64,000 bases of DNA from Elusimicrobiota bacterium. Its GTDB lineage: Bacteria > CG03 > SLGR01 > JAFGSA01. This document shows positions 2,682-52,966 of the stretch, piece after piece (positions within the stretch are counted from its first letter, which is position 1; each line of letters starts with the position of its first letter). Both the position numbers and the translations under genes were made by a program. The notes beneath the pieces were generated by a model that did no database searches, had not been told where the DNA came from, and saw only the letters and a list, made by a program, of their open reading frames with translations. The stretch lies in the NCBI GenBank assembly GCA_016934855.1, contig JAFGSA010000052.1:6220-70219 (forward strand), read 5' to 3'.

Positions 2682-3044
2682 TCACGCCAGCCGGTCATCT
2701 ATCTGCCTCAGTAAAGCCTGCGAATCGAACGGTTTGACGACATAACTCACAGCGCCGGCCTCCAGCCCTCTCATCACGTCCCCCTCCTGGCCCAGGGCAG
2801 AAAGTATTATTATCGGGATTTTCGAGGTCTTGGGATCACCTGATATGGTCTCCGTGGCCTCTATGCCGTTCATCTGGGGCATCATTATGTCCATGAGTAT
2901 CAGGTCGGGTTTTTCCTTGCCCACTGCCTCCACTGCCTCTTTACCGTTATAGCATACGACCACTTTATAATCCTTCTTCTCGAGCATGAACCTAAGCAGC
3001 CTTATAGTAACATCATCGTCTTCGACTATCATTATCTTTTTCAT
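2682..3044 (-). CDS. single-domain response regulator (CheY-like receiver)
   Basis: MKKIMIVEDD...DLILMDIMMP...KP receiver motifs. The ORF-track start at 3053 is TTG; the ATG at 3044 sits 9 nt after the SD GGAGAGG. Confidence 0.8.
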   Translation of the reverse strand: MKKIMIVEDDDVTIRLLRFMLEKKDYKVVVCYNGKEAVEAVGKEKPDLILMDIMMPQMNGIEATETISGDPKTSKIPIIILSALGQEGDVMRGLEAGAVSYVVKPFDSQALLRQIDDRLA

Positions 3045-3092: not shown

Positions 3093-5285
3093 TCATTTTC
3101 CTTTTTTCGCGCATATTGCTATATCGAGCATCAGGTTGAGCGCGTCGCTGTCTTTGATATCGCCCTGGGAAAGTATCTCGAAAGGCATCGAAGCCTTATC
3201 CATGGCCTTGCTGATATTATCCCGGAATTCCTTTATATCCACTTCAGAGTCTTTCCCGGGCTCCATGCACATGGCTATATCTATATTGTTGGTCGTGGAC
3301 ATGTGCGCGATCTTCTCGTAATTTATCATCTTGGGGGAATAATAATGAACAAACAGCGGCTTCACATAGAAATTAAAGCGTTTCTGCGTGGCCAGTTTCC
3401 CCAGCCTGTCGACTATTTTAGCCGTTATTGACTCCGAGCCCTCGGGCAGGAGGTATCCCGTTCTTATTTCCCTGAGCTCTTCTTTCTCCTCGCCTATGAC
3501 CTTCGTTTCGAAATTCTCGTCTACCGGTTTTGCTTTTTTATCCTCTTTTTTCTCAAGAGGCTTTATCTTGCCTATCGGTTTGACCGGAGCTTTTTTCGCC
3601 GCGGCAGCCTTTTTCTCATCAGGCGGCGGCGGCGGTTCATCGTCAAACTTGTTTATTTTTTCGACGGGGGCGTATTCAGCGCAGTTCCGGCAGTAATACC
3701 TGTTGTATTTCTGGATATATTCCAGGGGATTGCCGCATTTCATGCATCTTCTTATATCCTCTACCGGCGGATGCATCCCCGGCGGCTGGGGAGCGTACGG
3801 CCTCACGGGCGGATAGCCTGCGGGCATGAACGGCTGCATGGGATCCGTATACATCCCGCAGCCGGTGCAGAAATATTTCTGGTACTGGGGCAGGAAAGTC
3901 AGCTGTCCGCCGCATCTCGCGCAGATATTGCCCATCTGATGAGGGGCGGGATATGGCGGCATTACAGGAGGCGCGTACGGCTGCTGCATCCCGGGCTGCC
4001 GGACCGATGCGGGCGCCGGCGCCTCTTCCTCTTCTTCCGGTTCCTCTTTTCTGGCTTTCTTCTTTTTCTTCGGCTTCTCCTCCTCTGCTTCATCTTCATC
4101 CTGGTCTTTGGGGAGATTGTTGTCTATTATGTCCTTGACGAAATCCAGCTCTATCTGGTCGTTAGAGAGCTCCAGGTAAGCCGCTATGCGGTTTATTATA
4201 CCCTCGAGCTCCCTTATATTGTCGGTCAGGCGCTCCGAAATATAGCTCGTTATCTCTTCGGATATCTCTATGCCTGCCTGTTCGGCCTTCCTTTTTATTA
4301 TGGCGCGGCGCGTCTCTATGTTTGGAGATTTAATATCGGTAGTGAGCCCCCATTCGAACCTGGATTTAAGCCTGTCTTCAAGGGTCGAGAGCTGTTTAGG
4401 GGGTTTATCCGAAGTTATTACTATCTGTTTGCCCACGGCATGCATGGCGTTGAAGATATGGAAGAACTCCTCCTGCGTGGATTCCGACTGTTCGAGGAAC
4501 TGTATGTCGTCTATAAGCAGAAGGTCTATCTGCTTGTATTTCATCCTGAGGCTGTTCACTTTTCCCTTTTCTATCGCCTCCACGACTTCGTTTACGAAAT
4601 TATCCGTCGTGACATAAGCGATAGTAAACTCGGGATACTGCTCCTTGACGAACGTGCCTATGGCCTGCATGAGGTGCGTCTTGCCGAGCCCCACGCCGCC
4701 GTAGATGAACAGCGGGTTGTAGTTCTTGCCGGGTTTTTCTGCCACGGCCTTGCACGCGGCATAGGTGAACCTGGTATTGGCTCCGACGACGAAATTATCG
4801 AATGTATATTTTTCGTTAAGGTCCATGTATACGCCGTTCCCGGATTTCTTTTCTTCGGGTTTCCCGTCCGTCTTTGCTTCTTCTTTTTCAGCGGCAGGAG
4901 GTTCGGCCTCGTCCTCTTTTTCTTCTTCGGGTCTGTTTTCCTTCGACTCGGGCTTCTCCGGCTCTACCTTTTCTTCCTCGAGCACGGGCTTTTCCTCAGT
5001 TTTCTCTTCTTCCCCGGGTTTCTCGTCTTCCTTAGGCTGGTCCTTCCGGTTCAGTATCCTGTCCAGTTCGGATGTTATCCTGTCCCTTAACTTGTCATTC
5101 AGCTCATAAAGGTATAACGACCAGTCGAAATTCTCGTTAGGCGAAGGGAAGGGCTTACTGGCGATCTTGCCCAGTTTTTTAACCAGGACATTGATGTCCT
5201 TCTCATCGCCTACGATATTAAGCTTGTAGCGGTTATCGTCTTTTGCAGTAGGTACGTGTTCGAGCGTATAGTCTTTAAATACCAT
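3093..5285 (-). CDS. DnaA-like AAA+ ATPase lacking domain IV, with two C-terminal zinc ribbons and an unknown C-terminal domain
   Basis: DnaA domain-III motifs: Walker A FIYGGVGLGKTHLMQAIG, Walker B LLLIDDIQFL, box VII DRLKSRFEWGLTTDIKSPNIETRRAII, sensor II NIRELEGIINRIA. There is no domain-IV HTH. An acidic/lysine-rich and proline-rich low-complexity stretch follows, then two C-x2-C-x14-C-x2-C ribbons (nt 3858-3923 and 3681-3746), then a roughly 140 aa unknown domain. The most likely start is MVFKDY at 5285, 21 nt after the upstream stop, rather than the 5468 ORF-track start. Confidence 0.8.
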   Translation of the reverse strand: MVFKDYTLEHVPTAKDDNRYKLNIVGDEKDINVLVKKLGKIASKPFPSPNENFDWSLYLYELNDKLRDRITSELDRILNRKDQPKEDEKPGEEEKTEEKPVLEEEKVEPEKPESKENRPEEEKEDEAEPPAAEKEEAKTDGKPEEKKSGNGVYMDLNEKYTFDNFVVGANTRFTYAACKAVAEKPGKNYNPLFIYGGVGLGKTHLMQAIGTFVKEQYPEFTIAYVTTDNFVNEVVEAIEKGKVNSLRMKYKQIDLLLIDDIQFLEQSESTQEEFFHIFNAMHAVGKQIVITSDKPPKQLSTLEDRLKSRFEWGLTTDIKSPNIETRRAIIKRKAEQAGIEISEEITSYISERLTDNIRELEGIINRIAAYLELSNDQIELDFVKDIIDNNLPKDQDEDEAEEEKPKKKKKARKEEPEEEEEAPAPASVRQPGMQQPYAPPVMPPYPAPHQMGNICARCGGQLTFLPQYQKYFCTGCGMYTDPMQPFMPAGYPPVRPYAPQPPGMHPPVEDIRRCMKCGNPLEYIQKYNRYYCRNCAEYAPVEKINKFDDEPPPPPDEKKAAAAKKAPVKPIGKIKPLEKKEDKKAKPVDENFETKVIGEEKEELREIRTGYLLPEGSESITAKIVDRLGKLATQKRFNFYVKPLFVHYYSPKMINYEKIAHMSTTNNIDIAMCMEPGKDSEVDIKEFRDNISKAMDKASMPFEILSQGDIKDSDALNLMLDIAICAKKGK

Positions 5286-5305: not shown

Positions 5306-5905
5306 TCAGCCATTCATGACCGCCTTGATCTTTTCCGATACAATACCGTATTTCTCCGCGAAACCGGACTCCAGTCCCGCCTGCCTGCCGGCCATCTGAG
5401 CGCAGGACGACTTGTCCCCTATGCCTTTCGCGTTTATATGATAGTTCATCATGCCGCCCCTGAAACATGAACCCGCAAGTTCAGACGAAATACCCACATC
5501 GGTGATTATGTTAGCGAATTTCCCGAGATCGAGCGAGCCGGCTACATCCAGCAGTTCACAGCTCTTCTCGGCTATCTCCAGCGAGACAAGCGCTGATGCC
5601 TTAAGAGCGGCCTGGAGTTTTTCCCCTCCCTGCCTCCACGCGGCGAGCACCTCTTTGAACCTTGCGCTGTCTTCTTCCGCAAGAGAAAGCATCTTCTTCT
5701 GTATACCGAGGAGCCTGCTCTCCGCAGCGAGAGCCTCCCCGTTCTGCCGGTCTTTTTTCAGCACCGCTATCCTGAGCGACATGAGCAAGAGAGCGCATGC
5801 CATCGAACCGATGACTCCCAGCGCGTTTCCGCCGCCCGGAGTACCGCTGTCCGAAGACAGCTTCTCAATATATCCGCCCAGAGAACTTTCAGTTAAACTG
5901 TCCAT
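5306..5905 (-). CDS. formiminotransferase-cyclodeaminase (FTCD_C)-like domain protein
   Basis: GTPGGGNALGVIGSMACALLLMSL matches the cyclodeaminase / methenyl-THF cyclohydrolase glycine-rich motif. SD GGAAGG precedes the ATG. Confidence 0.6.
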   Translation of the reverse strand: MDSLTESSLGGYIEKLSSDSGTPGGGNALGVIGSMACALLLMSLRIAVLKKDRQNGEALAAESRLLGIQKKMLSLAEEDSARFKEVLAAWRQGGEKLQAALKASALVSLEIAEKSCELLDVAGSLDLGKFANIITDVGISSELAGSCFRGGMMNYHINAKGIGDKSSCAQMAGRQAGLESGFAEKYGIVSEKIKAVMNG

Positions 5906-6176
5906 TTATCCTGACCTTCCCTTCTTCTACAAGGATCCTGGCCAGGGGCGTTACCAGAGCCCCCGGCGGGATATTTACCGTCATCGAGCCTTTTCTCATC
6001 TCGTCCAGGAGATACTTCTCCGTTATGAGAGCGCGCGCGGAAGCCATTTTTCCGCCGGACAGCGTTCTGCCGGTGAAGAACCCCCGTTTAAAATCATCCT
6101 TCCCGCTCTTTCCTGTCTCCGCCGCCTGTGAAAAAGCGTCTACTATCATATCGGCGATGAGTTCATCTCTTACCAT
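5889..6176 (-). CDS. small hypothetical protein (95 aa) with an amphipathic N-terminus, BMC-locus associated
   Basis: SD AAAGGGG precedes the ATG. The N-terminal helix DELIADMIVDAFSQAA resembles encapsulation peptides. The C-terminus has a GALVTPLARILVEEG motif also found in the TIM N-extension. Confidence 0.55.
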   Translation of the reverse strand: MVRDELIADMIVDAFSQAAETGKSGKDDFKRGFFTGRTLSGGKMASARALITEKYLLDEMRKGSMTVNIPPGALVTPLARILVEEGKVRINGQFN

Positions 6177-6259: not shown

Positions 6260-6559
6260 TCAGCTTTTCTTTTTCAGATGCCCCTGGGGGAGTATCATCT
6301 CGAGATCCTCATGAGGCCTCGGTATAACGTGAACGCTCACCAGTTCTCCGACCTTCTGAGCGGCCGCCGCGCCGGCTTCCACAGCCGCCCGCACAGCTCC
6401 TACTTCTCCCCTGACCATAGTCGTCACGTAACCGTGCCCTATCTTCTCGTATCCCGCGAGATCGACCTTGGCAGCCTTCACCATCGCATCGGACGCCTCT
6501 ATCATCCCTATCAGCCCGATCGTCTCGATCATTCCCAACGCAAACTTAGATTCCGCCAT
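6260..6559 (-). CDS. BMC-H shell protein (PduA/EutM-like hexamer)
   Basis: [26 protein letters not shown]...[19 protein letters not shown] is the canonical BMC (PF00936) domain. A strong AGGAGG SD precedes the ATG. Confidence 0.93.
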
Positions 6560-6578
6560 TTTATACCTCCTGTTTTCA

Positions 6579-6716
6579 GTTTTAAGTTTTAAGCTTTAAG
6601 CTGTAAGCTCAATAATCCGCGAAAATATGAAAATCCATTCATAACATCATCAGTTAATTGATTTTCTTTTCCTGTCATTTCTTTGTCTTATAACTTACAG
6701 CTTACAACTTACAACT
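6579..6716. repeat. long imperfect inverted repeat (about 23 bp arms built from TTTAAG/CTTACA heptamer-like units) flanking an AT-rich roughly 80 nt spacer, between the aldolase and BMC-H genes
   Basis: Left arm tttaagttttaagctttaagctgtaagct and right arm ttataacttacagcttacaacttacaact are reverse complements with 3 mismatches. Confidence 0.6.
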
Positions 6717-8120
6717 CTAGTACTTGCTGTCGGATTTTCCTCCCGTCACTATGGCAACCGACGCCGACGCACCTATCCTGGTCGCTCCGGCTTTCACCAT
6801 CGTATCCGCATCTTCGCCCGTGCGTATTCCGCCTGATGCTTTGACTCCCATCGCAGGGCCGACGGTCTTTCTCATCAGGCTTATATCCTCGGCAGTAGCG
6901 CCTCCCGGGCCGAAACCGGTAGATGTCTTCACGAAGTCGGCGCCGGCATTCTTTGATATCTCGGACGCTTTTACTATCTGCTCCTTGCTGAGAAGCGCGG
7001 TCTCCAGGATTACCTTGAGAATTTTGCCCCGCGTCGCTTCCCTCACGGCTTTAATGTCATCCTCCACCAGCCGGTAGTTGCCTCCCTTCAGCGCTCCCAC
7101 GTTTAGGACCATGTCTATCTCGTCGGCACCGTTCGCTATCGCGTCGCGGGCTTCTATGGCCTTTACCGTAGGCGTGGTAGCTCCCAGGGGGAAACCTATC
7201 ACGGTAGTGACCCCTACGCCTGAGCCTTTCAGCAGTTCGCTGGCCATCTTCACGTGAGTCGGGTTCACGCAGACGGTGGCAAATTTATATTTTTTTGCTT
7301 CTTCACACAGTTTCCCTATCTGTTCCTGCGTCGCGTCCGCCTTGAGATTCGTATGGTCTATGAGCCTGGCAACATCAGCGGGCACTCCCGACGTGACCTG
7401 TTTCGAAGATATCCTTGATGCGCCGGCATCGATTATGGATTTAACCTCATCCTTGCGGTTTATCACGCAAAGCCCGCACTCCGCGCATGATTCGATACCC
7501 GGACAGGCTCCCGGCCTGGCCGTTTCTCCGCCGACCGGCACCACGTTCCTCAGGTTCATGATTTCAGCAGTCTTCTTCGCCAAATTCCTGCTGAGAGTTA
7601 TCTCGGCGCCCAGGTTTTTTATCGTGTTTATATACTCGTTTATCCTGCGCATGTAAAGTGACGTGACAGGAGGCTCGGGCGCATTACAGCACAATACCGA
7701 ATCCCTGGCCATTATTATCTTCTTTCCGTACCTCATCGCCATGAGGATGAGATTGCTGGCAGCGTTATCAGGCAGCATGTTTGCTATTTTGGATGCCCCG
7801 TTCAGCGTCAGGACAGGCACTATCACGGCATCCAGTTTCTCTACGAATCCCCTGTCCCACATCTCTTTCTCCGTAGCTATGTCGCAGCCGCCGGCTTCCT
7901 GTACTTTCTGCTTGCCGATGATACGTTCGGCGGCCGGAGTCAGAAAAGCGCGGAACTTCATGCCCATGTCCCTGAGACACCTCACCTGTTTAAGCGACGT
8001 TTCCACCTCCCTGTCCCCGCCCATGAATATGAGCAGGACGTTTTTTGCGGACGCATCTTCCCCCTTAAGCCTGTTTATCGTCTCCCTGGTCACTTTCTGT
8101 ATGAAATTCTCGTCTGCCAC
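6717..8120 (-). CDS. deoC: fusion of a flavoprotein-like (HFCD/SpoVFB-like) domain with deoxyribose-phosphate aldolase (DeoC/DERA)
   Basis: The C-terminal half ([12 protein letters not shown]...VKTSTGF...ASGGIRT) is a class I DERA. The N-terminal roughly 150 aa ([10 protein letters not shown]...[21 protein letters not shown]) resembles the PF02441 flavoprotein fold, and a Cys-rich linker ([13 protein letters not shown]) joins the halves. GTG start with SD AAGGAGGA. The N-terminal amphipathic helix [13 protein letters not shown] looks like an encapsulation peptide. Confidence 0.85.
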
Positions 8121-8129
8121 GGCTCCTCC

Positions 8130-8438
8130 TTAATGATATTTTTTCGTCTTATTCCCTGCCGAAACACTGTCTACTATGCCGGCTATTATCGTCCTGGTCG
8201 GCCCCTTACCGGCCCCCATCATCTGCCGGCAGGAAGATCCCTCGTCGATTATGAGCACCGTATCGCCGGGACCCGCATCCATGCTGTGGTCTATCGCAAG
8301 CTGTACCGGACCCGACCTGGTCCCTTTCATCCCGTCTACCGGACATATTAGCATCAGCTTTTTCCCTTCGAGCGAAGGATGTTTTCTCGTTGCCCAGACG
8401 TTCCCTACAACTTTTGCTATAAACATATAAATTCGCAT
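8130..8438 (-). CDS. BMC-P vertex protein (EutN/CcmL family pentamer)
   Basis: 102 aa with the EutN_CcmL pattern IAKVVGNVWATRK...GDTVLI...GAGKG. Confidence 0.88.
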   Translation of the reverse strand: MRIYMFIAKVVGNVWATRKHPSLEGKKLMLICPVDGMKGTRSGPVQLAIDHSMDAGPGDTVLIIDEGSSCRQMMGAGKGPTRTIIAGIVDSVSAGNKTKKYH

Positions 8439-8500
8439 CTCGTGAAGCGCATTTCGTGAAGCGTGCTATTCAGATGTATTTTTCCCGGACGATTCACTTT

Positions 8501-8815
8501 TTACGTTTCACCCTTCACTAAATTTACTCCGTCTATTATGCCTATCACCGCGTTATGGCATATAGGCTCTTCCTCGAAAGCCTGGCATGCTTCTTTAGAG
8601 GAAACATAAAAGACATATTCCGAATAGCCTGCACCGACCGCGTCGAGCGCCAGCACCGATTTACCGCTGTCTTTCGGACTTATATCCTTCCCGCCGTTCA
8701 CAGCTTCCGCCACCTCTTCCCAGGTCATCGGCTTCAGCATCAGTATCTTCTTCCCTCCGGTATTAGGGTACTTGCTGGTAGCTACGACCCTGCCTATGAC
8801 CCTGCCGGCTTTCAT
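8501..8815 (-). CDS. BMC-P vertex protein (EutN/CcmL family), second paralog with an insertion
   Basis: MKAGRVIGRVVATSKYP... is the EutN/CcmL N-terminal signature. An atypical roughly 25 aa insertion is present. The stop overlaps the downstream RpiB start. Confidence 0.82.
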   Translation of the reverse strand: MKAGRVIGRVVATSKYPNTGGKKILMLKPMTWEEVAEAVNGGKDISPKDSGKSVLALDAVGAGYSEYVFYVSSKEACQAFEEEPICHNAVIGIIDGVNLVKGET

Positions 8816-9252
8816 CTTTTCTCCATGTCCGCTATAAGGTTAATCCTGCGTTCGTGGCGGCCGCCCTCGAACCCGGTCCTGAGGAAAGCGTCTACTATCT
8901 TCTTCGCCTTTGCGAAAGAGGTAAAATCTGCTCCCAGGCAGAGGATATTCGCGTTATTATGCTTCGCGGCCATGACCGCGGCTTTCGCGGTCCTCACGGT
9001 GACTCCCCTTATGCCTTTCACCTTGTTGACGGCGATGCATACTCCGAGCCCGCTCCCGCATACCGCTATTCCCTTTTCCGCCCTTTTCCCCGAAACATCC
9101 ATGGCTACTTTTTCCGCGTATACGGGGTAATCAACGGAAGCCGGTCCGTCCGTACCGTTATCTATTACTTCGTGGCCGGACGCTACCAGGAACTTCCTTA
9201 TCCTGTCCTTGAGCGCATATCCCCTGTGGTCCGATCCGACGGATATCTTCAT
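8812..9252 (-). CDS. rpiB: ribose-5-phosphate isomerase B / LacB-like sugar-phosphate isomerase (catalytic Cys retained)
   Basis: MKISVGSDHRGYALK...IAVCGSGLGVCIAVNK...GGRHERRI is the RpiB/LacAB family, with the CGSG catalytic cysteine. Confidence 0.88.
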   Translation of the reverse strand: MKISVGSDHRGYALKDRIRKFLVASGHEVIDNGTDGPASVDYPVYAEKVAMDVSGKRAEKGIAVCGSGLGVCIAVNKVKGIRGVTVRTAKAAVMAAKHNNANILCLGADFTSFAKAKKIVDAFLRTGFEGGRHERRINLIADMEKR

Positions 9253-9256
9253 ATTT

Positions 9257-9706
9257 TCACCTGTAATACCTGTCTTCGACGGATTTCACCTTGTCCAGCC
9301 TTTTCCGGTGCCTTCCCTCGCCGAAGGGAGTCTCCAGCCATTGGGTCACTATGTCACGGGCGAGAAGCGTACCCAGCATCTTGCCCCCGAGACAGAGCAC
9401 GTTGCAGTCGTCGTGCTCGGAAGCGTACGCTCCCGTAAGATGGTTATACGCCGTGACAGCCCTTATGCCCCTGACCTTGTTTGCCGTCAGGCAGACCCCC
9501 CCTCCGGTTCCGTCTATCAGTATGCCCCTGCCGTAATCTCCCCGCGATACGGCTTCGGCCACAAGCAGCGCGTAGTCGGGGTAATCGCAGGATTCTTCCG
9601 AATACGTGCCGAAATCTATCACGTTATGCCCTTTTCCCTGCAGAAATTTTTTAATATCTTCTTTTAAGGCGAAACCGCCGTGGTCCGATCCTATTACTAT
9701 ATTCAT
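9257..9706 (-). CDS. RpiB/LacA-like sugar-phosphate isomerase paralog (catalytic Cys replaced by Asp)
   Basis: MNIVIGSDHGGFALK...ILIDGTGGGVCLTANK...GEGRHRKR is the same family, but with DGTG in place of CGTG. SD AGGAG precedes the ATG. Confidence 0.85.
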   Translation of the reverse strand: MNIVIGSDHGGFALKEDIKKFLQGKGHNVIDFGTYSEESCDYPDYALLVAEAVSRGDYGRGILIDGTGGGVCLTANKVRGIRAVTAYNHLTGAYASEHDDCNVLCLGGKMLGTLLARDIVTQWLETPFGEGRHRKRLDKVKSVEDRYYR

Positions 9707-9788
9707 TTTCTGGTAACTCCTGATCCGTGTAATATGTCATGTGAAATGTGTAACGTATAAATATCAAATTCAGATGAAACCGGATGGA

Positions 9789-9810
9789 AATCTACTGCCA
9801 ATCTATTGCC
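9789..9810. repeat. tandem direct 11-mer repeat (aatctactgcc / aatctattgcc) in the 184 nt intra-operon gap between BMC-T and the RpiB pair
   Basis: Two adjacent 11-mers differ by one base; read directly from the sequence. Confidence 0.5.
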
Positions 9811-9890
9811 AGAATAACAATCTTCTGCAAATTGAAAATAATTTCTAAGCATGAAATTTCCCTGCACTTCGCATATTACAACTTATACAA

Positions 9891-10439
9891 TCACAGCACG
9901 CTCTTCCGCAGGTCTTTATGCGGACTCGGGATTATGACCCTTCTTATGAGTATCCCTTCTTCTTTTATCGAACCGCACCCCGCGTTCACCGCCGACCGGA
10001 CGCTGGCGACATCCCCGGTCATCGTAACATACGCTTTTCCGCCGAGAGCGTTTGCCAGCCTCACGTCTATGAGCCTGATATCGGCTGCCTTCGCCGCGCT
10101 GTCAGCGGCTATTATGCACGACGCGACCGAAAACGTTTCTATGATGCCCAGCGCCCCGATCTCCGAGACGTCAGACGTGCCCCTGATAGCAGGAACAAGC
10201 TGGTCATGCACGTTCTTTATTATCAGTTTATCGACCAGCGCGTCTTCTGCCAGGTTCAGGCCGCTTTTCAGAGAACTCTCCACATCGGCCGTCGAACCGG
10301 TTATAAGGACTATGAACTTGCCCGGGCAGACGGAATGGGCTTCCACCAGTTCGCTGCCAGCAGTTTTCAAAAGGGCATCGGTGACCTCAAACCCTTTGGC
10401 CACACTGCATAATTCTATCAATCCTATCGCGTTGCGCAT
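9891..10439 (-). CDS. BMC-T shell protein (tandem BMC-domain, PduT-like pseudohexamer)
   Basis: Two BMC domains (IGLIELCSVAKG... and IGALGIIETFSVAS...). The likely start is MRNAIGLIEL at 10439, 10 nt after the PduS stop, with a GGAG SD. Confidence 0.85.
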   Translation of the reverse strand: MRNAIGLIELCSVAKGFEVTDALLKTAGSELVEAHSVCPGKFIVLITGSTADVESSLKSGLNLAEDALVDKLIIKNVHDQLVPAIRGTSDVSEIGALGIIETFSVASCIIAADSAAKAADIRLIDVRLANALGGKAYVTMTGDVASVRSAVNAGCGSIKEEGILIRRVIIPSPHKDLRKSVL

Positions 10440-10449
10440 ATTTTGCTCC

Positions 10450-11766
10450 TCAGCCGGATATCTCGATATACTCACTGCTAAAGCCCTTCACGGTGCCGCT
10501 TATGCTGGAGTGGACCGCCGCGCCGAGCTTATCTGCGGGTATCCCGGCCAGCAGGTCTCCCTTTTTCACCCTGTCGCCCTCACTTACTACGGGACTTGCC
10601 GGTGTCCCTATATGCTGGCTGAGAGGTATTCTGACTTTTCCGGTATCCACGGTCTTGACCCTGATATCGTGCATATCGTATGAATCTATATCAAGCCGGG
10701 CCATAAGCCTGTCCGTATTGACTCTTCTGAATTCCCTTTCCGGATGCGCCTTGAGATCCGAAAGCGAATGGGGATTCTTTATCCCTTTCTCCGCGAGTTC
10801 CTTCTTCGTCTTCCTGAGCATGTCCCGGGGGGACAGATCAAGGGGGCACGCGTACATATTGCATAACCCGCACTCGCTGCACAGGTACGCGTTCGTAAGA
10901 TGCACCTGATCGCCGCCGATAAAAAAGTTCCTCATGATCATGTGCGGCGAGAGGTTGTGTCCCAGCAGGTTCCTTGGGCATACTATAGTGCAGTCGAAAC
11001 ACTGATCACAGGTGGATTTGGCCCTTCTGGCCATGGCCTCGAAACCGGCACTGTGCTTCGCCACAAGAGGATGATCGGGCTTCAGCACTATCAGTCCTCC
11101 GCAGAGCTTCGTTATACTGAAGGATCTCTCCACCACCTTGCCCATCATGGGACCGCCGGCTATCACGGCATAATCTTTCAGCAGAGGTACGGCCCTGTCT
11201 ATAAGTTCTCCCGCGGATATGCCCACGGGCACCTCCGCGATATACGGTTCTTCGACCTCACCGGCGACTGTTACCCACCTGGTTACCACCGGGGTATCGC
11301 TTTCCACCGCAGCATTTATATTCACAAGAGTGTTTACATTTATCACGACCGCACCGACGCTAAGAGGTATGCCTCCTTCCGGGATGATCCTCCCGGTTAT
11401 GTTATATACCAGCTCGAACTCGTCTCCGGCGGGGTAATAGTTATCCAGGAGCGCTACCCTGACGGATTTATCGCGGGCGGCTGCCTTCCTGACAGATTCC
11501 GCAGCTTCCGGATACTTTTTTTTCAGCGCGATAAAGACGTTTTTCGCCCCCGTTGTTTTTTTCACGTGCCCCAGACCCTGCATTATCTCGGCGGCACGGT
11601 TTTCCATCAGATACCTGTCCGTACTCAGCAGAGGCTCGCACTCGGCTCCGTTGGCTATCACGGTATCGACGGAGGCCGCTATCTTGACATGCGCAGGGAA
11701 TCCGCCCCCGCCTGCGCCTACGACTCCCGCTCTTCTGACTCTTTCGATAATATCCTTTTTCTCCAT
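10450..11766 (-). CDS. pduS: PduS/RnfC-like NAD(P)H-binding Fe-S flavoprotein (BMC cofactor-recycling oxidoreductase)
   Basis: N-terminal GAGGGGFP (Complex1_51K/SLBB region), two 4Fe-4S motifs (CDQCFDCTIVCP and CSECGLCNMYACP), and a C-terminal RnfC_N-like barrel segment PLSQHIGTPASPVVSEGDRVKKGDLLAG. Confidence 0.85.
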   Translation of the reverse strand: MEKKDIIERVRRAGVVGAGGGGFPAHVKIAASVDTVIANGAECEPLLSTDRYLMENRAAEIMQGLGHVKKTTGAKNVFIALKKKYPEAAESVRKAAARDKSVRVALLDNYYPAGDEFELVYNITGRIIPEGGIPLSVGAVVINVNTLVNINAAVESDTPVVTRWVTVAGEVEEPYIAEVPVGISAGELIDRAVPLLKDYAVIAGGPMMGKVVERSFSITKLCGGLIVLKPDHPLVAKHSAGFEAMARRAKSTCDQCFDCTIVCPRNLLGHNLSPHMIMRNFFIGGDQVHLTNAYLCSECGLCNMYACPLDLSPRDMLRKTKKELAEKGIKNPHSLSDLKAHPEREFRRVNTDRLMARLDIDSYDMHDIRVKTVDTGKVRIPLSQHIGTPASPVVSEGDRVKKGDLLAGIPADKLGAAVHSSISGTVKGFSSEYIEISG

Positions 11767-11811
11767 CCTATGATATCAATGATCTGGGTCTCGCCGGCTG
11801 TCTGTCCCGCG

Positions 11812-13242
11812 TCATACTATCCTGAAATAGTCCACAAGGGTGCAGCGCAGCGGGCGGGTGAATGTCTTCGCGCTTACCAGCCCGTCACCCGTAGGCGTGG
11901 CTATGGAAAGCGATGCGAACCCTTCTCCCATTCCGAGCCCCATGTAAGACGGGCCGTTTTTTACGAATATGGAGCATGCCGCGGCATAGGCCATCTTCGT
12001 CAGCCTGTCCACGTTCAGTGAATGCATCACGGCAGTGTGCCCGTTGCCTCCCTCCATCTCCACGGCAAGCTGTATAGTCCTGTCGATGGAACCGGTCCTT
12101 GCAAACGGGAGTATCGGCATGAGCTGCTCGGTCCACATAAAATCGTGTTTTTCGTCGACGAGGCCCCACAGCAGCCTTACATCTTCCCGCAGATCGATAC
12201 CCAGCGCGTTCTTCGCAATAAAAGAAGCGTTCCTGCCTACATACTCGCGGTTCAGCACGGGTTCCCTGCAGCCGGCACCGCCTTTTACTATCGCGGCAGA
12301 CGCGAGCCTGTCCATCTGTTCCGGCGACAGTTCGTGAACCCTGGGATCTTTTCTCATTCTCTCCAGCACAGCCTCGGCCGCGCCGTCTGCCAGAAGGACT
12401 TCTTTTTCCGCCGTGCACAGTATGCCGTTATCGAAACTGGCCCCCCTTATTATCGAATCCACCGCTTTTTCGAAATCGGCGGTTTCGTCGACAACTACCG
12501 GAGGGTTCCCGGGCCCGGCGGCGATGACTCTCTTACTGCTTTTCATCGCTGCCGCGACTACCCCCGGGCCTCCGGTCACAAGAAGAATCCTTATATCAGG
12601 ATGAGTAAACAGGGTCTGTGCTCCCTCGATGCTGGGGGTTTTCATCGCGGTTATCAGCCCCCTAGGGCCGCCGCTCGCCGCTATGGCGTCTGAAAGGATC
12701 TGCATAGTATACTGGGAGACCTCCCTGGCAGCGGGATGCGGGGCGAATACCACGGAATTGCCCGCCGCTATTATGCTTATAGAATTATTTATTATCGTAG
12801 ACGGAGGATTGGTCGAGGGAGTAACGGCTCCTATGATCCCGTAAGGCGCCCTTTCCACGAGAGTCAGCCCGTTGTCCCCGGTGAAAGCTTCGGGACGCAG
12901 ATCTTCGACACCCGGCGTTTTTTCCGCGGCCAGGGTGTTCTTCAGCACTTTGTCTTCCCACCGGCCCATCCCGGTCTCCCTGCTTGCCATCTTCGCAAGC
13001 GTCTGAGCTTCTTTAAGGGAAACACGGCGCATCGCATCAATCAGTCTCTTCCTGGTCTCAAGATCCGTATCCCTGAGCTTTCTCTGCGCTTCCTTCGCGG
13101 CCAGGATCGCCTCTTCCATCGTCTGGAAAAGTACCCCGTCACCCGAGGAGGCGGCAGGGCCGTATGATACGCCCTTCTCCTTCTCCATCCTTGATATTAT
13201 CTCTCTTACCACGTCTGATATCTGCTTCTCGTCTACATTCAT
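11812..13242 (-). CDS. CoA-acylating aldehyde dehydrogenase (PduP/EutE-like) with an N-terminal encapsulation peptide
   Basis: Aldehyde dehydrogenase fold with the catalytic-Cys region ILCTAEKE. The N-terminal amphipathic helix ISDVVREIISRM is followed by a linker. The ORF-track start at 13257 is TTG; the ATG at 13242 follows the SD GAGAGG. Confidence 0.85.
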   Translation of the reverse strand: MNVDEKQISDVVREIISRMEKEKGVSYGPAASSGDGVLFQTMEEAILAAKEAQRKLRDTDLETRKRLIDAMRRVSLKEAQTLAKMASRETGMGRWEDKVLKNTLAAEKTPGVEDLRPEAFTGDNGLTLVERAPYGIIGAVTPSTNPPSTIINNSISIIAAGNSVVFAPHPAAREVSQYTMQILSDAIAASGGPRGLITAMKTPSIEGAQTLFTHPDIRILLVTGGPGVVAAAMKSSKRVIAAGPGNPPVVVDETADFEKAVDSIIRGASFDNGILCTAEKEVLLADGAAEAVLERMRKDPRVHELSPEQMDRLASAAIVKGGAGCREPVLNREYVGRNASFIAKNALGIDLREDVRLLWGLVDEKHDFMWTEQLMPILPFARTGSIDRTIQLAVEMEGGNGHTAVMHSLNVDRLTKMAYAAACSIFVKNGPSYMGLGMGEGFASLSIATPTGDGLVSAKTFTRPLRCTLVDYFRIV

Positions 13243-13301
13243 TCTCATACCTCTCAAAGCTTGATACGGGTCCGCTTCCGGTATTCGCCGTGGATCGGCG
13301 G

Positions 13302-13595
13302 CTACTTGGTTTTTCTGAAGATAACCTTCCCTTCTTTCTCTATGTAATCCACTATTCCCATTACCGTGCAGTCTACCGGCCTGTTCTCGGTGGCATCCGT
13401 CATCCTGGCGGATGACCCCTTGACGAACAGGACTACCTCCCCCTCTCCGGCTCCCACTGAATCGATCCCCACCTGCGGTGCCGAAGTAGGCTTGAGATTA
13501 TCGTCTACGGGCTGTACCAGGAGAAGTTTCCTCCCCTGGATTTTTTCATCCTTTACGGTGCAGACCACGTTTCCTGTTATTATTCCGAATTCCAT
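13302..13595 (-). CDS. BMC-P vertex protein (EutN/CcmL family), third paralog
   Basis: MEFGIITGNVVCTVK...GEVVLFVKGSSAR is the EutN_CcmL pattern. Confidence 0.88.
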   Translation of the reverse strand: MEFGIITGNVVCTVKDEKIQGRKLLLVQPVDDNLKPTSAPQVGIDSVGAGEGEVVLFVKGSSARMTDATENRPVDCTVMGIVDYIEKEGKVIFRKTK

Positions 13596-13620
13596 GCTTG
13601 TTCTCCTTTAAGACTGACGC

Positions 13621-13917
13621 TCATTTTACAGGTCTTATGGGAAGCAGTTCCTCCAGATCCCGGAAAGGATATGGGATGACATGGGCGCTCATCACTTTCC
13701 CCACCCGGTTAGCCGCGCTGCAGGCCGCATCTACGGCCGCCTGGCAGTCCGCCACGGAACCCCTGACCAGCACCGTCACTATCCCGTCTCCGGTTTTCCT
13801 GTAACCGGCTATCTGGACCTTCGCCGTTTTCAACATGACATCGGCCGCTTCCACCATGGCAGTCAGTCCCATGGTCTCGATCATGCCGAGGGCTGTCATG
13901 TCCCTGTCAATATCCAT
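13621..13917 (-). CDS. BMC-H shell protein (PduA/EutM-like hexamer)
   Basis: ALGMIETMGLTAMVEAADVMLKTAKV...VTVLVRGSVADCQAAVDAA is the BMC domain. An alternative start at 13899 (MTALGMIET) is plausible. Confidence 0.9.
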   Translation of the reverse strand: MDIDRDMTALGMIETMGLTAMVEAADVMLKTAKVQIAGYRKTGDGIVTVLVRGSVADCQAAVDAACSAANRVGKVMSAHVIPYPFRDLEELLPIRPVK

Positions 13918-13923
13918 AACGCT

Positions 13924-14541
13924 TTAACATATAAAAACCTTATCGCCGTTTTTCAGATCACACGAATTGGCCTCGTCCGTATCTATATGACACTCGAGCC
14001 TGTATTTATCGCTCACACGCACCAGCACGTTTTCGAATACGACCGACCTGGATCCGGCTGTCCGGATGCGGACCTCCTGCTTGTCTGCGAGATTGAATTC
14101 TTCGGCGTCCGCGGGGGTCATATGAATATGCCTTCTGGCTACGATCACTCCCTCTTTTATCTGCAGGGATCCCTTAGGCCCGATAAACCTGGCCCCGCCG
14201 GAGCTCTTTATATCCCCGGATTCCCTGACCGGGACTTCTATCCCGATCCTGTAGCTGTCGGTCCTGGATATCTCGGCCTGGGTTATCTTTCTCGCGGGGC
14301 CGAGTACCCTTACGTTCTTGAGCGTGCCCCTGGGTCCGAGTATATCTATCGTCTCCCGCGCAGCGTATTCGCCGGGCTGCACCAGGTCCCTCAGTTTGCG
14401 CAATTCGTATCCGCTCCCGAAAAGCGCCTCTATGGCTTCCCGGGTCAGATGCACGTGCCTGTTGGAGATATTGCAGATGACAGGTTTATCCATCCTCCCG
14501 AGTCTCTTAACAACTTCTCCTGCGATCTTAGATATGTCCAT
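13924..14541 (-). CDS. pduL: phosphate acyltransferase PduL (PTAC) with an N-terminal amphipathic helix
   Basis: Two PduL repeats, NISNRHVHLT...GPRG and ARRHIHMTPADAEEF...ECHIDTDEAN. The N-terminal helix is ISKIAGEVVKRLGRM. Confidence 0.9.
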   Translation of the reverse strand: MDISKIAGEVVKRLGRMDKPVICNISNRHVHLTREAIEALFGSGYELRKLRDLVQPGEYAARETIDILGPRGTLKNVRVLGPARKITQAEISRTDSYRIGIEVPVRESGDIKSSGGARFIGPKGSLQIKEGVIVARRHIHMTPADAEEFNLADKQEVRIRTAGSRSVVFENVLVRVSDKYRLECHIDTDEANSCDLKNGDKVFIC

Positions 14542-14623
14542 ATCAGCCGCTTAATACGTAACGCGTTATATGTAAAGGGAGAAATAATCTATAAGCCGCC
14601 TGCTGCCTCATTATTCTCCCCGG

Positions 14624-20236: not shown

Positions 20237-20246
20237 CTTTTAAATT

Positions 20247-24120: not shown

Positions 24121-24123
24121 ATA

Positions 24124-46537: not shown

Positions 46538-46538
46538 C

Positions 46539-47927: not shown

Positions 47928-47943
47928 ATTGAAAGGAGAAAAA

Positions 47944-48708: not shown

Positions 48709-48721
48709 AAAGGAAGGAATC

Positions 48722-52964: not shown

Positions 52965-52966
52965 CG

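What the first reader, a model, noticed from the sequence alone, without database searches (positions are those of the whole stretch)
3093..5285. DnaA paralog with domain IV replaced by two zinc ribbons and an unknown domain, directly downstream of the BMC locus
The ATPase core is unmistakably DnaA-type (GGVGLGKTHL, box VII RFEWGL, sensor II NIRELEG). The conserved DNA-binding domain IV is absent. The C-terminus instead has a highly charged low-complexity linker (E/K-rich, then P/Q/Y-rich), two C-x2-C-x14-C-x2-C ribbons and a roughly 140 aa domain without recognisable motifs. The N-terminus is also unlike DnaA domain I. It is co-oriented, 21 nt from the preceding gene, and followed by a response regulator. 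I do not recognise this architecture as a described family. It may be a nucleotide-dependent regulator or scaffold linked to the microcompartment or to nucleoside metabolism rather than a replication initiator.
Basis: partly seen in the sequence, partly recalled or inferred. Interest (0 to 1): 0.8.

Follow-up and report, generated by a model that had tools for sequence, protein, structure and literature searches.

The report
DnaA-derived ATPase in nucleoside-catabolism operon
A gene that databases call the chromosome replication starter DnaA belongs instead to an undescribed, Elusimicrobia-only protein family that keeps DnaA's ATP motor, replaces both of its ends with new domains (one shaped like the Argonaute MID domain), and always sits in the operon for breaking down nucleosides and deoxyribose, here at the end of a protein-shelled microcompartment locus.

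Summary
Window 5285..3093 (minus strand) encodes a 730-aa protein with a canonical DnaA AAA+ domain III, no domain I, no domain IV, two C-x2-C-x14-C-x2-C ribbons and long charged or proline-rich linkers.

New findings:
- The N-terminal (about 80 aa) and C-terminal (about 135 aa) domains are conserved. They define a small family (111 representatives among 1.84 billion proteins), essentially confined to Elusimicrobiota.
- The zinc ribbons are an accessory of one or two clades.
- Both end domains recur without the ATPase in small proteins encoded just upstream in related genomes. The N-domain also heads GGDEF cyclases.
- In 42 of 45 loci the gene is co-oriented with pentose or nucleoside catabolic genes. 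Typical neighbours are a PilT-family ATPase upstream and a histidine kinase, sometimes with a response regulator, downstream. All 6 members of the two-ribbon clade sit at the 3' end of an SPU1 microcompartment locus.
- The essential ssDNA-contact lysine of DnaA is Ser or Ala in 90 of 90 members.

The protein is most likely a DnaA-derived ATP switch or scaffold of this catabolic module, not the initiator. A canonical dnaA in the same genome was not shown directly.

The parts
3093..5285 (-). Whole gene: 730-aa DnaA-derived protein (N-domain, linker, DnaA AAA+ domain III, linker with two zinc ribbons, C-domain); stop codon 3093-3095
   Evidence: ORF and translation. Identical NCBI protein is named 'MAG: chromosomal replication initiator protein DnaA [Elusimicrobia bacterium]'.
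5040..5285 (-). N-domain (aa 1-82), family-specific alpha/beta domain (beta-beta-alpha-beta-alpha); not DnaA domain I
4836..5039 (-). Linker 1 (aa 83-150), E/K/P-rich low-complexity segment
   Evidence: Composition E 25, K 13, P 9 of 68 residues. Length and sequence vary among homologues.
4110..4835 (-). DnaA AAA+ domain IIIa/IIIb (aa 151-392): Walker A 4677-4700, Walker B D259/D260, box VII R305/R309, sensor II R358; Ser267 (4485-4487) replaces the essential ssDNA-contact lysine
   Evidence: Pfam Bac_DnaA E 9.5e-69. TIGR00362 356.8 bits. Near-identity to the canonical consensus. Residue census.
3924..4109 (-). Linker 2 (aa 393-454), acidic/basic run followed by a P/Q/Y-rich segment
   Evidence: Composition.
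3858..3923 (-). Zinc ribbon 1 (aa 455-476, CARC-x14-CTGC)
   Evidence: Sequence. Weak Pfam DZR_2 hit. Present only in the closest clade and, as a single copy, in one further clade.
3681..3746 (-). Zinc ribbon 2 (aa 514-535, CMKC-x14-CRNC)
   Evidence: Sequence. Weak Pfam FYVE and DUF7564 hits.
3513..3680 (-). Linker 3 (aa 536-591), K/P/A-rich
   Evidence: Composition.
3102..3512 (-). C-domain (aa 592-728), family-defining Rossmann-like beta-alpha x4 domain with an Argonaute-MID-like fold; C-terminal helix motif ALNLMLDIAICAKK
2682..3044 (-). Co-transcribed single-domain CheY-like response regulator, last gene before the terminator-like hairpin at 2665-2680
   Evidence: Pfam Response_reg E 7.6e-32. 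Terminator scan. A response regulator follows the family gene in 11 of 44 loci and a histidine kinase in 29 of 44.
5306..6176 (-). Upstream pair conserved at the 3' end of SPU1 loci: 95-aa unknown protein (5889-6176) and FTCD_C-like protein (5306-5905)
   Evidence: Pfam FTCD_C E 2.2e-28. The same pair precedes the family gene in L001, L002, L055, L056 and L057.
6260..15520 (-). SPU1-type microcompartment locus: BMC-H, flavoprotein-DeoC, 2 BMC-P, 2 RpiB, BMC-T, PduS/RnfC-like, aldehyde dehydrogenase, BMC-P, BMC-H, PTAC, TIM
   Evidence: ORFs. Homology labels. Pfam via orthologous locus L001 and PTAC. SPU1 definition from the Sutter 2021 supplement.

Best explanation
**What it is**
The gene encodes a member of an undescribed family restricted to Elusimicrobiota. 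A fully intact DnaA-type AAA+ module (domain III) has lost DnaA domains I and IV. It is flanked instead, through long disordered tethers, by an alpha/beta N-domain of about 80 aa and a Rossmann-like C-domain of about 135 aa with an Argonaute-MID-like fold.

**What it most likely does**
It is most likely not the chromosomal initiator. I propose it is an ATP-gated oligomerising switch or scaffold within the signalling and organising module of the nucleoside, pentose-phosphate and deoxyribose-phosphate catabolic operon. In this genome that operon is the SPU1 microcompartment operon.

**Proposed mechanism**
- ATP binding drives DnaA-style head-to-tail assembly through the conserved arginine finger and sensor II. 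The residues are shown; the activity is inferred.
- The MID-like C-domain binds a 5'-phosphorylated nucleotide or a nucleic-acid 5' end derived from DNA or RNA breakdown. This is inferred from fold only.
- The N-domain is a docking module. It is shared with the ATPase-less N-C proteins encoded just upstream and with GGDEF cyclases. The sharing is shown; docking is inferred.
- Through these contacts, and together with the adjacent GAF histidine kinase, CheY-like regulator and PilT-type ATPase where present, the protein couples availability of nucleic-acid breakdown products to expression, activity or spatial organisation of the pathway. This step is inferred.
- In the clade of this window the two zinc ribbons may stand in for the missing PilT and N-C partners. 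This is speculative.
For: **Architecture**
- Domain III only, with no domain I or IV.
- The C-domain is MID-like, not an HTH.

**Divergence from initiators**
- The lysine equivalent to B. subtilis DnaA Lys222 is Ser or Ala in 90 of 90 family members and Lys in 22 of 22 canonical DnaAs.
- That lysine is essential and hydrogen-bonds the phosphate of the DnaA-trio strand (PMC10721633).

**Context**
- No dnaN gene lies among the Pfam-annotated neighbours of 9 family members, and no ORF in any of the ~50 loci matched a DnaA domain IV probe (dnaN, recF and gyrB were not among the probes there).
- In 42 of 45 loci of at least 8 kb the gene lies with pentose or nucleoside genes. All 134 such ORFs are on the same strand.
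- Upstream: PilT in 26 of 33 loci, RpiB in 25 and DeoC in 24.
- Downstream: histidine kinase in 29 of 44, transketolase in 19 and nucleoside phosphorylase in 18.
- Gene overlaps and the lack of an internal terminator indicate co-transcription.
- All 6 members of the two-ribbon clade sit directly after the SPU1 BMC genes.
- In the window the operon is preceded by a 5'-nucleotidase and a nucleoside ABC transporter.

**Modularity**
- The N- and C-domains recur without the ATPase in one or two ORFs just upstream. The N-domain also heads GGDEF proteins. This is typical of signalling or adaptor modules.

**A separate initiator probably exists in the phylum**
- Elusimicrobia are listed among phyla with dciA inside the dnaA-dnaN-recF-gyrB operon, and E. 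minutum DciA is Emin_0004.
Against: - Domain III is conserved at the level of orthologues. It is 49-57% identical to Firmicute DnaAs, with an almost identical consensus that includes the initiator-specific motif and most DnaA-trio pocket residues. This argues that a DnaA-like nucleic-acid or DnaA-DnaA activity is retained, which a pure signalling scaffold would not need.
- No canonical dnaA was shown in this genome or in any genome carrying the family.
- No DNA-binding output domain is evident, so a route to transcriptional control is not defined.
- The MID resemblance is at fold level only. Foldseek E-values are 1e-4 to 1e-2, there is no sequence-level Argonaute hit, and ligand-binding residues were not compared.
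- The window itself lacks the PilT, histidine-kinase and N-C partner genes next to the gene.
Confidence: 0.5

Rival explanations
1. It is the true chromosomal replication initiator of Elusimicrobiota. On this view it is an orthologue of DnaA in which origin recognition (domain IV) and helicase recruitment (domain I) were taken over by the MID-like C-domain and the new N-domain.
For: - Domain III is as similar to canonical DnaAs of other phyla as true orthologues are: 49-57% identity with a near-identical consensus.
- Nine of 10 members tested pass the NCBI DnaA equivalog cut-off.
- The family is spread across the phylum and appears single-copy per genome in the scan.
- No Elusimicrobial canonical DnaA appeared among the best 120 hits.
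- Endomicrobium trichonymphae is reported to have only a DnaA pseudogene (PMC5174739).
Against: - It lacks all three things an initiator needs: the DnaA-box HTH, domain I, and the essential phosphate-contact lysine, which is absent in 90 of 90 members.
- It is embedded in and co-transcribed with a catabolic operon, with no dnaN among the Pfam-annotated neighbours of 9 members and no domain IV ORF in ~50 loci.
- E. minutum appears to have a separate dnaA-dnaN-recF-dciA operon at locus tags 0001-0004. This is inferred from PMC5109545.
- The window shows no GC-skew inflection near the gene.
Confidence: 0.08
2. It is a DNA-handling factor for using DNA as food. The DnaA-type module polymerises on single-stranded DNA. 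The MID-like domain caps or recognises the 5'-phosphate end. The protein receives DNA brought in by PilT-powered type IV pili and hands it to nucleases. The resulting nucleotides then feed the nucleoside phosphorylase, DeoC and BMC pathway.
For: - A bona fide PilT/PilU ATPase (TIGR01420, 456 bits against a cut-off of 319) lies directly upstream in 26 of 33 loci.
- Most ssDNA-pocket residues of DnaA are retained.
- MID domains bind 5'-phosphorylated guide ends (established knowledge), and MID is the best fold match.
- SPU microcompartments are proposed to process DNA-degradation products (PMC8217296).
- The window carries a 5'-nucleotidase and a nucleoside transporter.
Against: - The essential phosphate-contact lysine is lost in every member.
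- No nuclease, ComEC-like channel or pilin genes are conserved in the loci.
- PilT is absent from the window's clade.
- The 5'-phosphate-binding residues of MID were not shown to be conserved.
Confidence: 0.15
3. It regulates the canonical DnaA, acting like Hda or as a poisoning subunit. Because its oligomerisation surfaces are DnaA-like, it would co-assemble with DnaA-ATP and tune initiation according to nucleoside or nucleotide supply sensed by the C-domain.
For: - The arginine finger, sensor II and interface residues are invariant, and domain III stays unusually close to canonical DnaA. This is expected if the protein must keep fitting DnaA.
- The lack of domain IV and of the ssDNA-contact lysine would make it a non-productive subunit.
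- Hda provides a precedent for a domain-III-only regulator (established knowledge; partial match).
Against: - There is no Hda-type clamp-binding motif in 0 of 95 members.
- The Hda model score is below its cut-off, 120 against 194.8.
- The genomic context is catabolic and signalling, not replication.
- Coexistence with a canonical DnaA was not demonstrated.
Confidence: 0.12
4. It is a microcompartment assembly or positioning system analogous to McdA/McdB. The ATPase would work with a disordered adaptor (the N-C protein) to organise or space SPU1 compartments or their cargo.
For: - All 6 members of the closest clade are the gene immediately after the SPU1 shell and cargo genes.
- The protein and its N-C relatives have long charged disordered regions like McdB-type adaptors (background in PMC13052382).
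Against: - Shell genes are nearby in only 12 of 33 loci.
- The ATPase is AAA+, not ParA-type, and it lacks a double-stranded-DNA-binding domain for a nucleoid track.
- No encapsulation-peptide-like terminus is evident, and the C-terminal helix is part of the folded C-domain.
Confidence: 0.1

Closest known systems
DnaA, bacterial chromosomal replication initiator (TIGR00362; Pfam DnaA_N + Bac_DnaA + Bac_DnaA_C)
   Same: - AAA+ domain IIIa/IIIb is almost indistinguishable. Walker A/B, sensor I/II, the box VII arginine finger, the initiator-specific motif and most DnaA-trio pocket residues are kept.
- Identity to canonical DnaAs is 49-57%.
   Different: - No domain I and no domain IV or DnaA signature.
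- The essential phosphate-contact lysine is Ser or Ala.
- New N- and C-domains, long disordered linkers and, in this clade, zinc ribbons.
- It lies in a catabolic operon, never beside dnaN.
Hda / HdaA, the DnaA-related regulatory inactivator (TIGR03420)
   Same: It is a DnaA-derived protein that retains the AAA+ module but lacks the DNA-binding domain IV, so it is a precedent for a non-initiator DnaA relative. There is a partial model match and a weak Hda_lid hit.
   Different: - Hda is about 230 aa, has an N-terminal clamp-binding motif and is much more diverged from DnaA.
- This protein scores below the Hda cut-off (120 against 194.8), has no clamp motif and carries two extra globular domains.
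MID domain of Argonaute/PIWI proteins
   Different: - No PIWI, PAZ or N domain is present.
- There is no detectable sequence similarity.
- Conservation of the 5'-phosphate-binding residues was not established.
- The domain is fused to an AAA+ ATPase instead.
McdA/McdB carboxysome positioning system
   Same: It pairs an ATPase with a partner protein rich in disordered regions, encoded next to microcompartment genes.
   Different: [quoted passage not shown] Here the ATPase is a DnaA-type AAA+ without a dsDNA-binding domain, and the genes persist where no shell genes are nearby.
SPU1 sugar-phosphate-utilising microcompartment locus (Sutter et al. 2021)
   Same: The window's locus has the SPU1 hallmarks: DeoC and RpiB next to two BMC-P, plus aldehyde dehydrogenase, PTAC and TIM, in Elusimicrobia only.
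   Different: The published description of SPU1 does not mention the DnaA-like gene, the histidine kinase or response regulator, or PilT as locus components.

Membership tests
DnaA (chromosomal replication initiator) | AAA+ domain III with Walker A/B, sensor I/II and box VII arginine finger | tested here: met
   Pfam Bac_DnaA E 9.5e-69. Motifs are invariant in 90 of 90 family members.
DnaA (chromosomal replication initiator) | C-terminal domain IV (HTH, Bac_DnaA_C PF08299, DnaA signature) that reads DnaA boxes | tested here: not met
   No PF08299 hit. The TIGR00362 match stops at model position 345 of 437. The signature is present in 0 of 95 members. The C-domain fold is Rossmann-like and MID-like.
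DnaA (chromosomal replication initiator) | N-terminal domain I (DnaA_N PF11638) for helicase loading and self-interaction | tested here: not met
   [not shown]
DnaA (chromosomal replication initiator) | Essential lysine contacting the ssDNA phosphate (B. subtilis Lys222, E. coli Lys243) | tested here: not met
   Ser (59) or Ala (31) in 90 of 90 family members, Lys in 22 of 22 canonical DnaAs. It is Ser267 in this protein. The residue's role is taken from PMC10721633.
DnaA (chromosomal replication initiator) | Score above the curated equivalog cut-off of TIGR00362 | tested here: met
   356.8 bits against 343.9 for this protein. Other members score 339.5-387.2, and a canonical DnaA scores 590. 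The score is met by domain III alone, which explains the database name.
DnaA (chromosomal replication initiator) | Typical context (rpmH / dnaA-dnaN-recF-gyrB) or proximity to oriC | tested here: not met
   No dnaN among the Pfam-annotated neighbours of 9 members and no domain IV ORF in ~50 loci (recF and gyrB not probed). No GC-skew inflection in the window. For contrast, a canonical DnaA sits in the rpmH / dnaA-dnaN context.
DnaA (chromosomal replication initiator) | Origin binding, unwinding and essentiality for initiation | not testable with these tools
   Requires biochemistry or genetics.
Hda (DnaA regulatory inactivator) | Score above the TIGR03420 cut-off; protein of about 230 aa consisting of domain III only | tested here: not met
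   120.2 bits against a cut-off of 194.8. The protein is 730 aa with two extra domains.
Hda (DnaA regulatory inactivator) | N-terminal beta-clamp-binding motif (QL[SP]L[PF]-like) | tested here: not met
   Present in 0 of 95 family members within the first 30 residues.
Argonaute/PIWI MID domain | Rossmann-like four-strand, four-helix fold | tested here: met
   [not shown]
Argonaute/PIWI MID domain | Conserved 5'-phosphate-binding residues (Y-K-Q-K type pocket) | not tested
   Model coordinates could not be superposed residue by residue. Conserved Tyr and Lys residues exist in the C-domain (Y60, Y67, K122 of alignment A1), but their equivalence to the MID pocket is unknown.
Argonaute/PIWI MID domain | Detectable sequence homology and association with a PIWI domain | tested here: not met
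   The profile search of PDB sequences finds no Argonaute. The only hit is a weak TLR2 TIR match at E 0.0075. No PIWI or PAZ domain appears in Pfam.
SPU1 bacterial microcompartment locus (context, not the protein) | DeoC (PF01791) and RpiB (PF02502) adjacent to two BMC-P, with AldDh, PTAC and TIM; Elusimicrobia only | tested here: met
   Window ORFs 6260-15520 and orthologous loci. Definition from the Sutter 2021 supplement.
McdA/McdB-type BMC positioning | ParA-type (deviant Walker A) ATPase that binds nucleoid DNA | tested here: not met
   The ATPase is a DnaA-type AAA+, and no ParA-like gene is called in the loci.

The most novel reading that the evidence does not exclude
A DnaA-type filament former has been re-tooled into a nucleic-acid-end sensor or handler for feeding on DNA. 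The MID-like C-domain would grip the 5'-phosphate end of incoming or degraded single-stranded nucleic acid. The DnaA AAA+ module would polymerise along it in an ATP-dependent way. The complex, working with PilT-driven uptake and the N-C adaptor proteins, would deliver or signal this substrate to the nucleoside and deoxyribose pathway and its microcompartment. This would be the first MID-like domain acting outside Argonaute proteins, and the first DnaA derivative with a metabolic role.
Probability: 0.13. Interest if true: 0.85.

Novelty: new variant of a known kind. Interest (0 to 1): 0.68.

Why it matters
- **Annotation.** Members of this family are named 'chromosomal replication initiator protein DnaA' because domain III alone clears the TIGR00362 cut-off. 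To my knowledge TIGR00362 is also used as a bacterial marker gene. Replication-origin prediction, marker-gene counting and statements about DnaA in Elusimicrobiota may therefore rest on the wrong gene.
- **Evolution of DnaA.** The family shows that the DnaA motor can be kept almost unchanged while both of its functional ends are exchanged. The new C-terminal end is a domain whose nearest structural relatives are Argonaute MID domains. This architecture raises testable questions about what the DnaA AAA+ module can do away from an origin.
- **SPU1 microcompartments.** The family gives these widespread but barely studied compartments their first candidate regulatory or organising components: the DnaA-like protein, the N-C proteins, PilT, the GAF kinase and the response regulator.
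- **Replication, if a rival is right.** If the low-probability initiator reading were right instead, a whole phylum would start replication without a DnaA-box reader.

Tried and rejected
- **N-domain as domain I: rejected**.
- **Zinc ribbons as the defining feature: rejected.** They are absent from most members.
- **Known anti-phage defence system: rejected.** PADLOC gives only weak generic ATPase matches.
- **My early guess that the 186-aa ORF in Endomicrobiia loci equals the FTCD_C protein was wrong.** That ORF is a lipoprotein-like protein with a signal peptide.
- **Attempts to settle whether a canonical dnaA coexists all failed.**
  - The best canonical hit, P0095, proved to be a Clostridia DnaA in an rpmH / dnaA-dnaN locus.
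  - The E. minutum and Rs-D17 genome papers are not held.
  - No supplement is held for PMC5174739.
  - Locus-tag searches found nothing.
- **Tool problems.**
  - The afdb50 fold library was unavailable.
  - The first related-loci run, with the broad alignment A1, failed for lack of a conserved stretch.
  - The look-up of encoding contigs had no record for the window protein itself.


Full report
**1. Checking the observation**

The feature is a gene on the minus strand, from the ATG at 5285 to the stop at 3095-3093, encoding 730 aa. The open frame continues upstream to an ATG at 5468. That start would overlap the preceding FTCD_C-like gene (5306-5905). All homologues begin with the same N-terminal domain at residues 1-3, so 5285 is the start.

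- Walker A GGVGLGKT (aa 196-203)
- box VII RLKSRFEWGL (R305, R309)
- sensor II NIRELEG (R358)

Pfam Bac_DnaA matches aa 156-317 at E 9.5e-69. There is no hit to Bac_DnaA_C or DnaA_N. The two ribbons are exactly C-x2-C-x14-C-x2-C, at aa 455-476 and 514-535. The linkers are E/K/P-rich, then charged plus P/Q/Y-rich, then K/P/A-rich.

A CheY-like response regulator follows after about 48 nt. The only terminator-like hairpin on this strand comes after that gene.

**2. Organism and database name**

An identical protein exists in NCBI as 'MAG: chromosomal replication initiator protein DnaA [Elusimicrobia bacterium]' on a 72.6-kb contig. The name arises because domain III alone scores 356.8 bits on the NCBI equivalog model TIGR00362, whose cut-off is 343.9. 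The match covers only model positions 99-345 of 437.

Nine other family members score 339.5-387.2 bits in the same truncated way. A canonical DnaA scores 590 bits over the whole model.

**3. The family**

The first homology search returned about 95 proteins of 550-750 aa. Those that carry an organism name are labelled Elusimicrobiota, Endomicrobiia or unclassified 'bacterium'. All have Bac_DnaA and none has Bac_DnaA_C. Canonical DnaAs appear only below them.

Alignments show three conserved globular parts:
- an N-domain of about 80 aa
- domain III
- a C-domain of about 135 aa, ending in K-x-Y-R-Y-L-N-L-x-L-D-I (ALNLMLDIAICAKK in this clade)

These parts are separated by linkers that vary from tens to hundreds of residues.

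The zinc ribbons are not general. There are two in the closest clade (46-55% identical), one in a second clade and none in the rest.

An exhaustive HMMER scan with the C-domain profile over 1.84 billion representative proteins found only 111 proteins. The domain is always at the C-terminus, in four arrangements:

| Arrangement | Representatives | Comment |
|---|---|---|
| N-AAA-C | 28 | full architecture |
| AAA-C | 20 | many truncated |
| N-C | 12 | no ATPase |
| C alone | 51 | many fragments |

A scan of one genome per species found 47 loci. Forty-four are in MAGs labelled Elusimicrobia, Endomicrobia or Elusimicrobiota; two are labelled simply 'bacterium' and one Ignavibacteria.

**4. Structures of the new domains**

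The C-domain model is confident (pLDDT 92.5) and has four beta-alpha units.

- sixteen of the 17 best hits (all those above lumazine synthase) are Argonaute, PIWI or PIWI-domain (short pAgo) proteins

Foldseek agrees. Its highest TM-scores (0.68-0.80) are to MIWI MID and its best E-value (9e-5) is to a Clostridium Argonaute. The lumazine synthase hits have TM of about 0.4.

The resemblance is at fold level only. A profile search of PDB sequences finds no Argonaute, just a weak TLR2 TIR match at E 0.0075. I could not compare ligand-binding residues. No DnaA domain IV structure appears among the hits, so the refuting condition 'C-terminal domain is a divergent domain IV' is not met.

**5. How DnaA-like is the motor?**

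Very. The family consensus over domain III is almost the same as the consensus of 22 canonical DnaAs. Identity to individual Firmicute DnaAs is 49-57%.

Walker A/B, both box VII arginines and sensor II are invariant in 90 of 90 members. Of the residues that hold the DnaA-trio strand in the B. subtilis cryo-EM structure, Ile190, Ile193, Arg202, Glu223 and Glu228 are kept.

There is one systematic exception, Lys222:
- The paper describes it as essential and as hydrogen-bonding the backbone phosphate (PMC10721633).
- It is Ser (59) or Ala (31) in all 90 family members.
- It is Lys in all 22 canonical proteins.
- It is Ser267 in this protein.

So the ATP-dependent oligomerisation machinery is intact, but a contact needed for origin opening has been given up by the whole family.

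**6. Genomic context**

I labelled ORFs in 53 loci by BLASTP with proteins of the window and of related loci. The order is strongly conserved and co-oriented:

TIM - RpiB - (two secreted or lipoprotein-like ORFs) - DeoC - [BMC shell genes in some] - PilT-family ATPase - (small unknown ORFs) - DnaA-like - multi-GAF histidine kinase - (response regulator) - (aminotransferase) - transketolase - nucleoside phosphorylases

| Neighbour | Side | Loci with it |
|---|---|---|
| PilT | upstream | 26 of 33 |
| RpiB | upstream | 25 of 33 |
| DeoC | upstream | 24 of 33 |
| BMC shell genes | upstream | 12 of 33 |
| Histidine kinase | downstream | 29 of 44 |
| Transketolase | downstream | 19 of 44 |
| Nucleoside phosphorylase | downstream | 18 of 44 |
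| Response regulator | downstream | 11 of 44 |

In 42 of 45 loci of at least 8 kb there is at least one pentose or nucleoside gene, and all 134 such ORFs are on the same strand as the family gene.

The upstream ATPase is a genuine PilT/PilU (TIGR01420, 456 bits against 319). The kinase has three GAF domains. No ORF in any locus matched a DnaA domain IV probe, and no dnaN gene is among the Pfam-annotated neighbours of the 9 members looked up.

In the two-ribbon clade all six loci examined (window, L001, L002, L055, L056, L057) have the same arrangement:

BMC-H - 95-aa unknown - FTCD_C-like - DnaA-like - (kinase) - response regulator - (aminotransferase) - transketolase - adenine deaminase - phosphopentomutase - nucleoside phosphorylase

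The BMC locus fits the SPU1 subtype, which Sutter et al. describe as exclusive to Elusimicrobia. Their description and supplements do not mention the DnaA-like gene. The 2024 SPU characterisation does not mention it either.

In the window the operon is preceded by a 5'-nucleotidase, a Bmp/PnrA-type nucleoside ABC transporter and a GAF-GGDEF protein. So the refuting condition 'homologs never co-occur with BMC genes' is not met. However, the deeper conserved link is to the pentose and nucleoside operon rather than to the shell.

**7. An unexpected clue: the end domains are a module of their own**

The 'unknown' ORFs just upstream of the family gene carry the same N-domain and C-domain joined by a disordered stretch, without any ATPase. 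Examples are:
- L002 8944-9999
- L010 6244-8112
- L027 6626-8170
- L040 4533-5462
- two in tandem in each of L041, L046 and L047

The N-domain also forms the N-terminus of GGDEF diguanylate cyclases between deoC and pilT in Endomicrobiia loci (L006, L020, L023, L028).

The window has only the DnaA-like copy. Members with zinc ribbons lack the upstream PilT, but the sample is small, 3 loci against 28. Shared, shuffled end domains fused to an ATPase, to a cyclase or to each other, next to a kinase and a receiver, are what one expects of a signalling or adaptor network.

**8. Is there another dnaA?**

I could not test this directly:
- The window has none.
- The best canonical hit turned out to be clostridial.
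- The relevant genome papers are not held.

Indirect evidence favours a separate initiator. Brézellec et al. list Elusimicrobia among phyla where dciA lies in the dnaA-dnaN-recF-gyrB operon, and they give E. minutum DciA as Emin_0004. This implies a replication operon at locus tags 0001-0005. The family is never found in such a context.

The report that Endomicrobium trichonymphae has only a DnaA pseudogene cannot be assigned to either gene type. I estimate about 85% that canonical DnaA coexists with the family in the phylum.

**9. Interpretation**

Shown:
- the architecture
- the folds
- the phylum restriction
- the operon context
- the domain sharing
- the intact ATPase and oligomerisation motifs
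- the loss of domain I, domain IV and Lys222

Inferred:
- The protein assembles in an ATP-dependent, DnaA-like manner.
- Its MID-like domain binds a 5'-phosphorylated nucleotide or nucleic-acid end.
- Its N-domain docks to partners.
- Together these couple nucleic-acid breakdown products to control or organisation of the SPU1 and nucleoside pathway.

I give this 0.5. The main internal tension is the orthologue-level conservation of domain III. This keeps alive three rivals in which a DnaA-like nucleic-acid or DnaA-DnaA activity matters:

| Rival | Confidence |
|---|---|
| ssDNA-handling factor for DNA as food, with PilT | 0.15 |
| Hda-like modulator of canonical DnaA | 0.12 |
| The phylum's own initiator | 0.08 |
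| McdAB-like BMC positioning role | 0.10 |

**10. Novelty and verdict**

My literature searches found no description of a DnaA-MID fusion, of DnaA paralogues in Elusimicrobia, or of this gene in SPU loci.

It is a new variant of a known kind: a DnaA/Hda-type AAA+ derivative with a new architecture and context. It is of real interest to people working on replication initiation, on Argonaute-domain evolution and on microcompartments. It also has a practical annotation consequence. Interest 0.68.

Noticed in passing
L002:8944-9999; L010:6244-8112; L027:6626-8170; L040:4533-5462; L041:6306-7418 and 7514-8587; L046 and L047 likewise: One or two ORFs directly upstream of the DnaA-like gene carry the same N-domain and C-domain joined by a disordered stretch, with no ATPase ('N-C proteins'). 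The window has no such ORF.
   Followed up: partly
L006:4635-6059; L020:4214-5665; L023:5165-6589; L028:5368-6810: The family's N-domain also forms the N-terminus of GGDEF diguanylate cyclases (HMM E 1e-8 to 6e-12), located between deoC and pilT in Endomicrobiia loci.
   Followed up: partly
L004:6228-7313 and equivalents in 26 of 33 loci; absent from the window: A bona fide PilT/PilU-family ATPase (TIGR01420, 456 bits) is conserved just upstream of the family gene. No pilin or platform genes were noticed beside it. Loci whose DnaA-like protein has zinc ribbons lack it (3 against 28 loci).
   Followed up: partly
window 3093-5285 and family members P0002-P0096: Domain III alone clears the TIGR00362 DnaA equivalog cut-off in 9 of 10 members tested, so the family is systematically named DnaA. 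From memory, TIGR00362 is also a bac120 marker, which could confuse marker-gene counts in this phylum.
   Followed up: partly
window 15593-22827 (minus strand): Upstream of the BMC locus lie a GAF-GGDEF protein, a nucleoside-type ABC transporter (two permeases, ATPase, Bmp/PnrA binding protein) and a 5'-nucleotidase. This is consistent with scavenging extracellular nucleotides.
   Followed up: partly
window 44328-49477 (plus strand): A plus-strand cluster encodes AllH, an FdrA-like CoA-ligase protein, AllG (oxamate carbamoyltransferase subunits), a cyclase and a PNP/UDP phosphorylase. This looks like purine or allantoin catabolism. The local sign change of GC and AT skew at 44-50 kb coincides with this strand switch rather than with an origin.
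   Followed up: no
window 5306-6176 and 6717-8120: Three conserved SPU1 accessories have unclear roles: a 95-aa protein with no family, an FTCD_C / methenyl-THF-cyclohydrolase-like all-helical protein, and DeoC fused to an N-terminal flavoprotein-like domain.
   Followed up: no
[not shown]
   Followed up: partly
L011:7640-10405; P0305, P0378, P0379, P0387: Variant architectures exist. Some members have two tandem N-domains (922 and 836 aa). Others reach about 1000-1190 aa, with very long regions lacking any family-domain match before the ATPase.
   Followed up: no
L004:4433-5391 and equivalents: In loci without shell genes, RpiB and DeoC are separated by two apparently secreted proteins: a TPR protein with a signal peptide and a lipoprotein-like protein with a lipobox and weak GNA1162/DUF4136 hits. 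This is odd company for cytoplasmic sugar-phosphate enzymes.
   Followed up: no
window 52284-54502 (minus strand): An ankyrin-repeat protein ORF (52284-53447) overlaps by about 480 nt the ORF of a ComM/Mg-chelatase-like ATPase (52967-54502), so one start codon is probably mis-set. Ankyrin repeats are uncommon in free-living bacteria.
   Followed up: no
window 34806-38936 (minus strand): Housekeeping DNA-metabolism genes dprA, topA and a xerC/D-type recombinase lie together, with polA, coaE and rho at 22843-27371. No dnaA, dnaN, recF or gyrB occurs anywhere in the window.
   Followed up: yes
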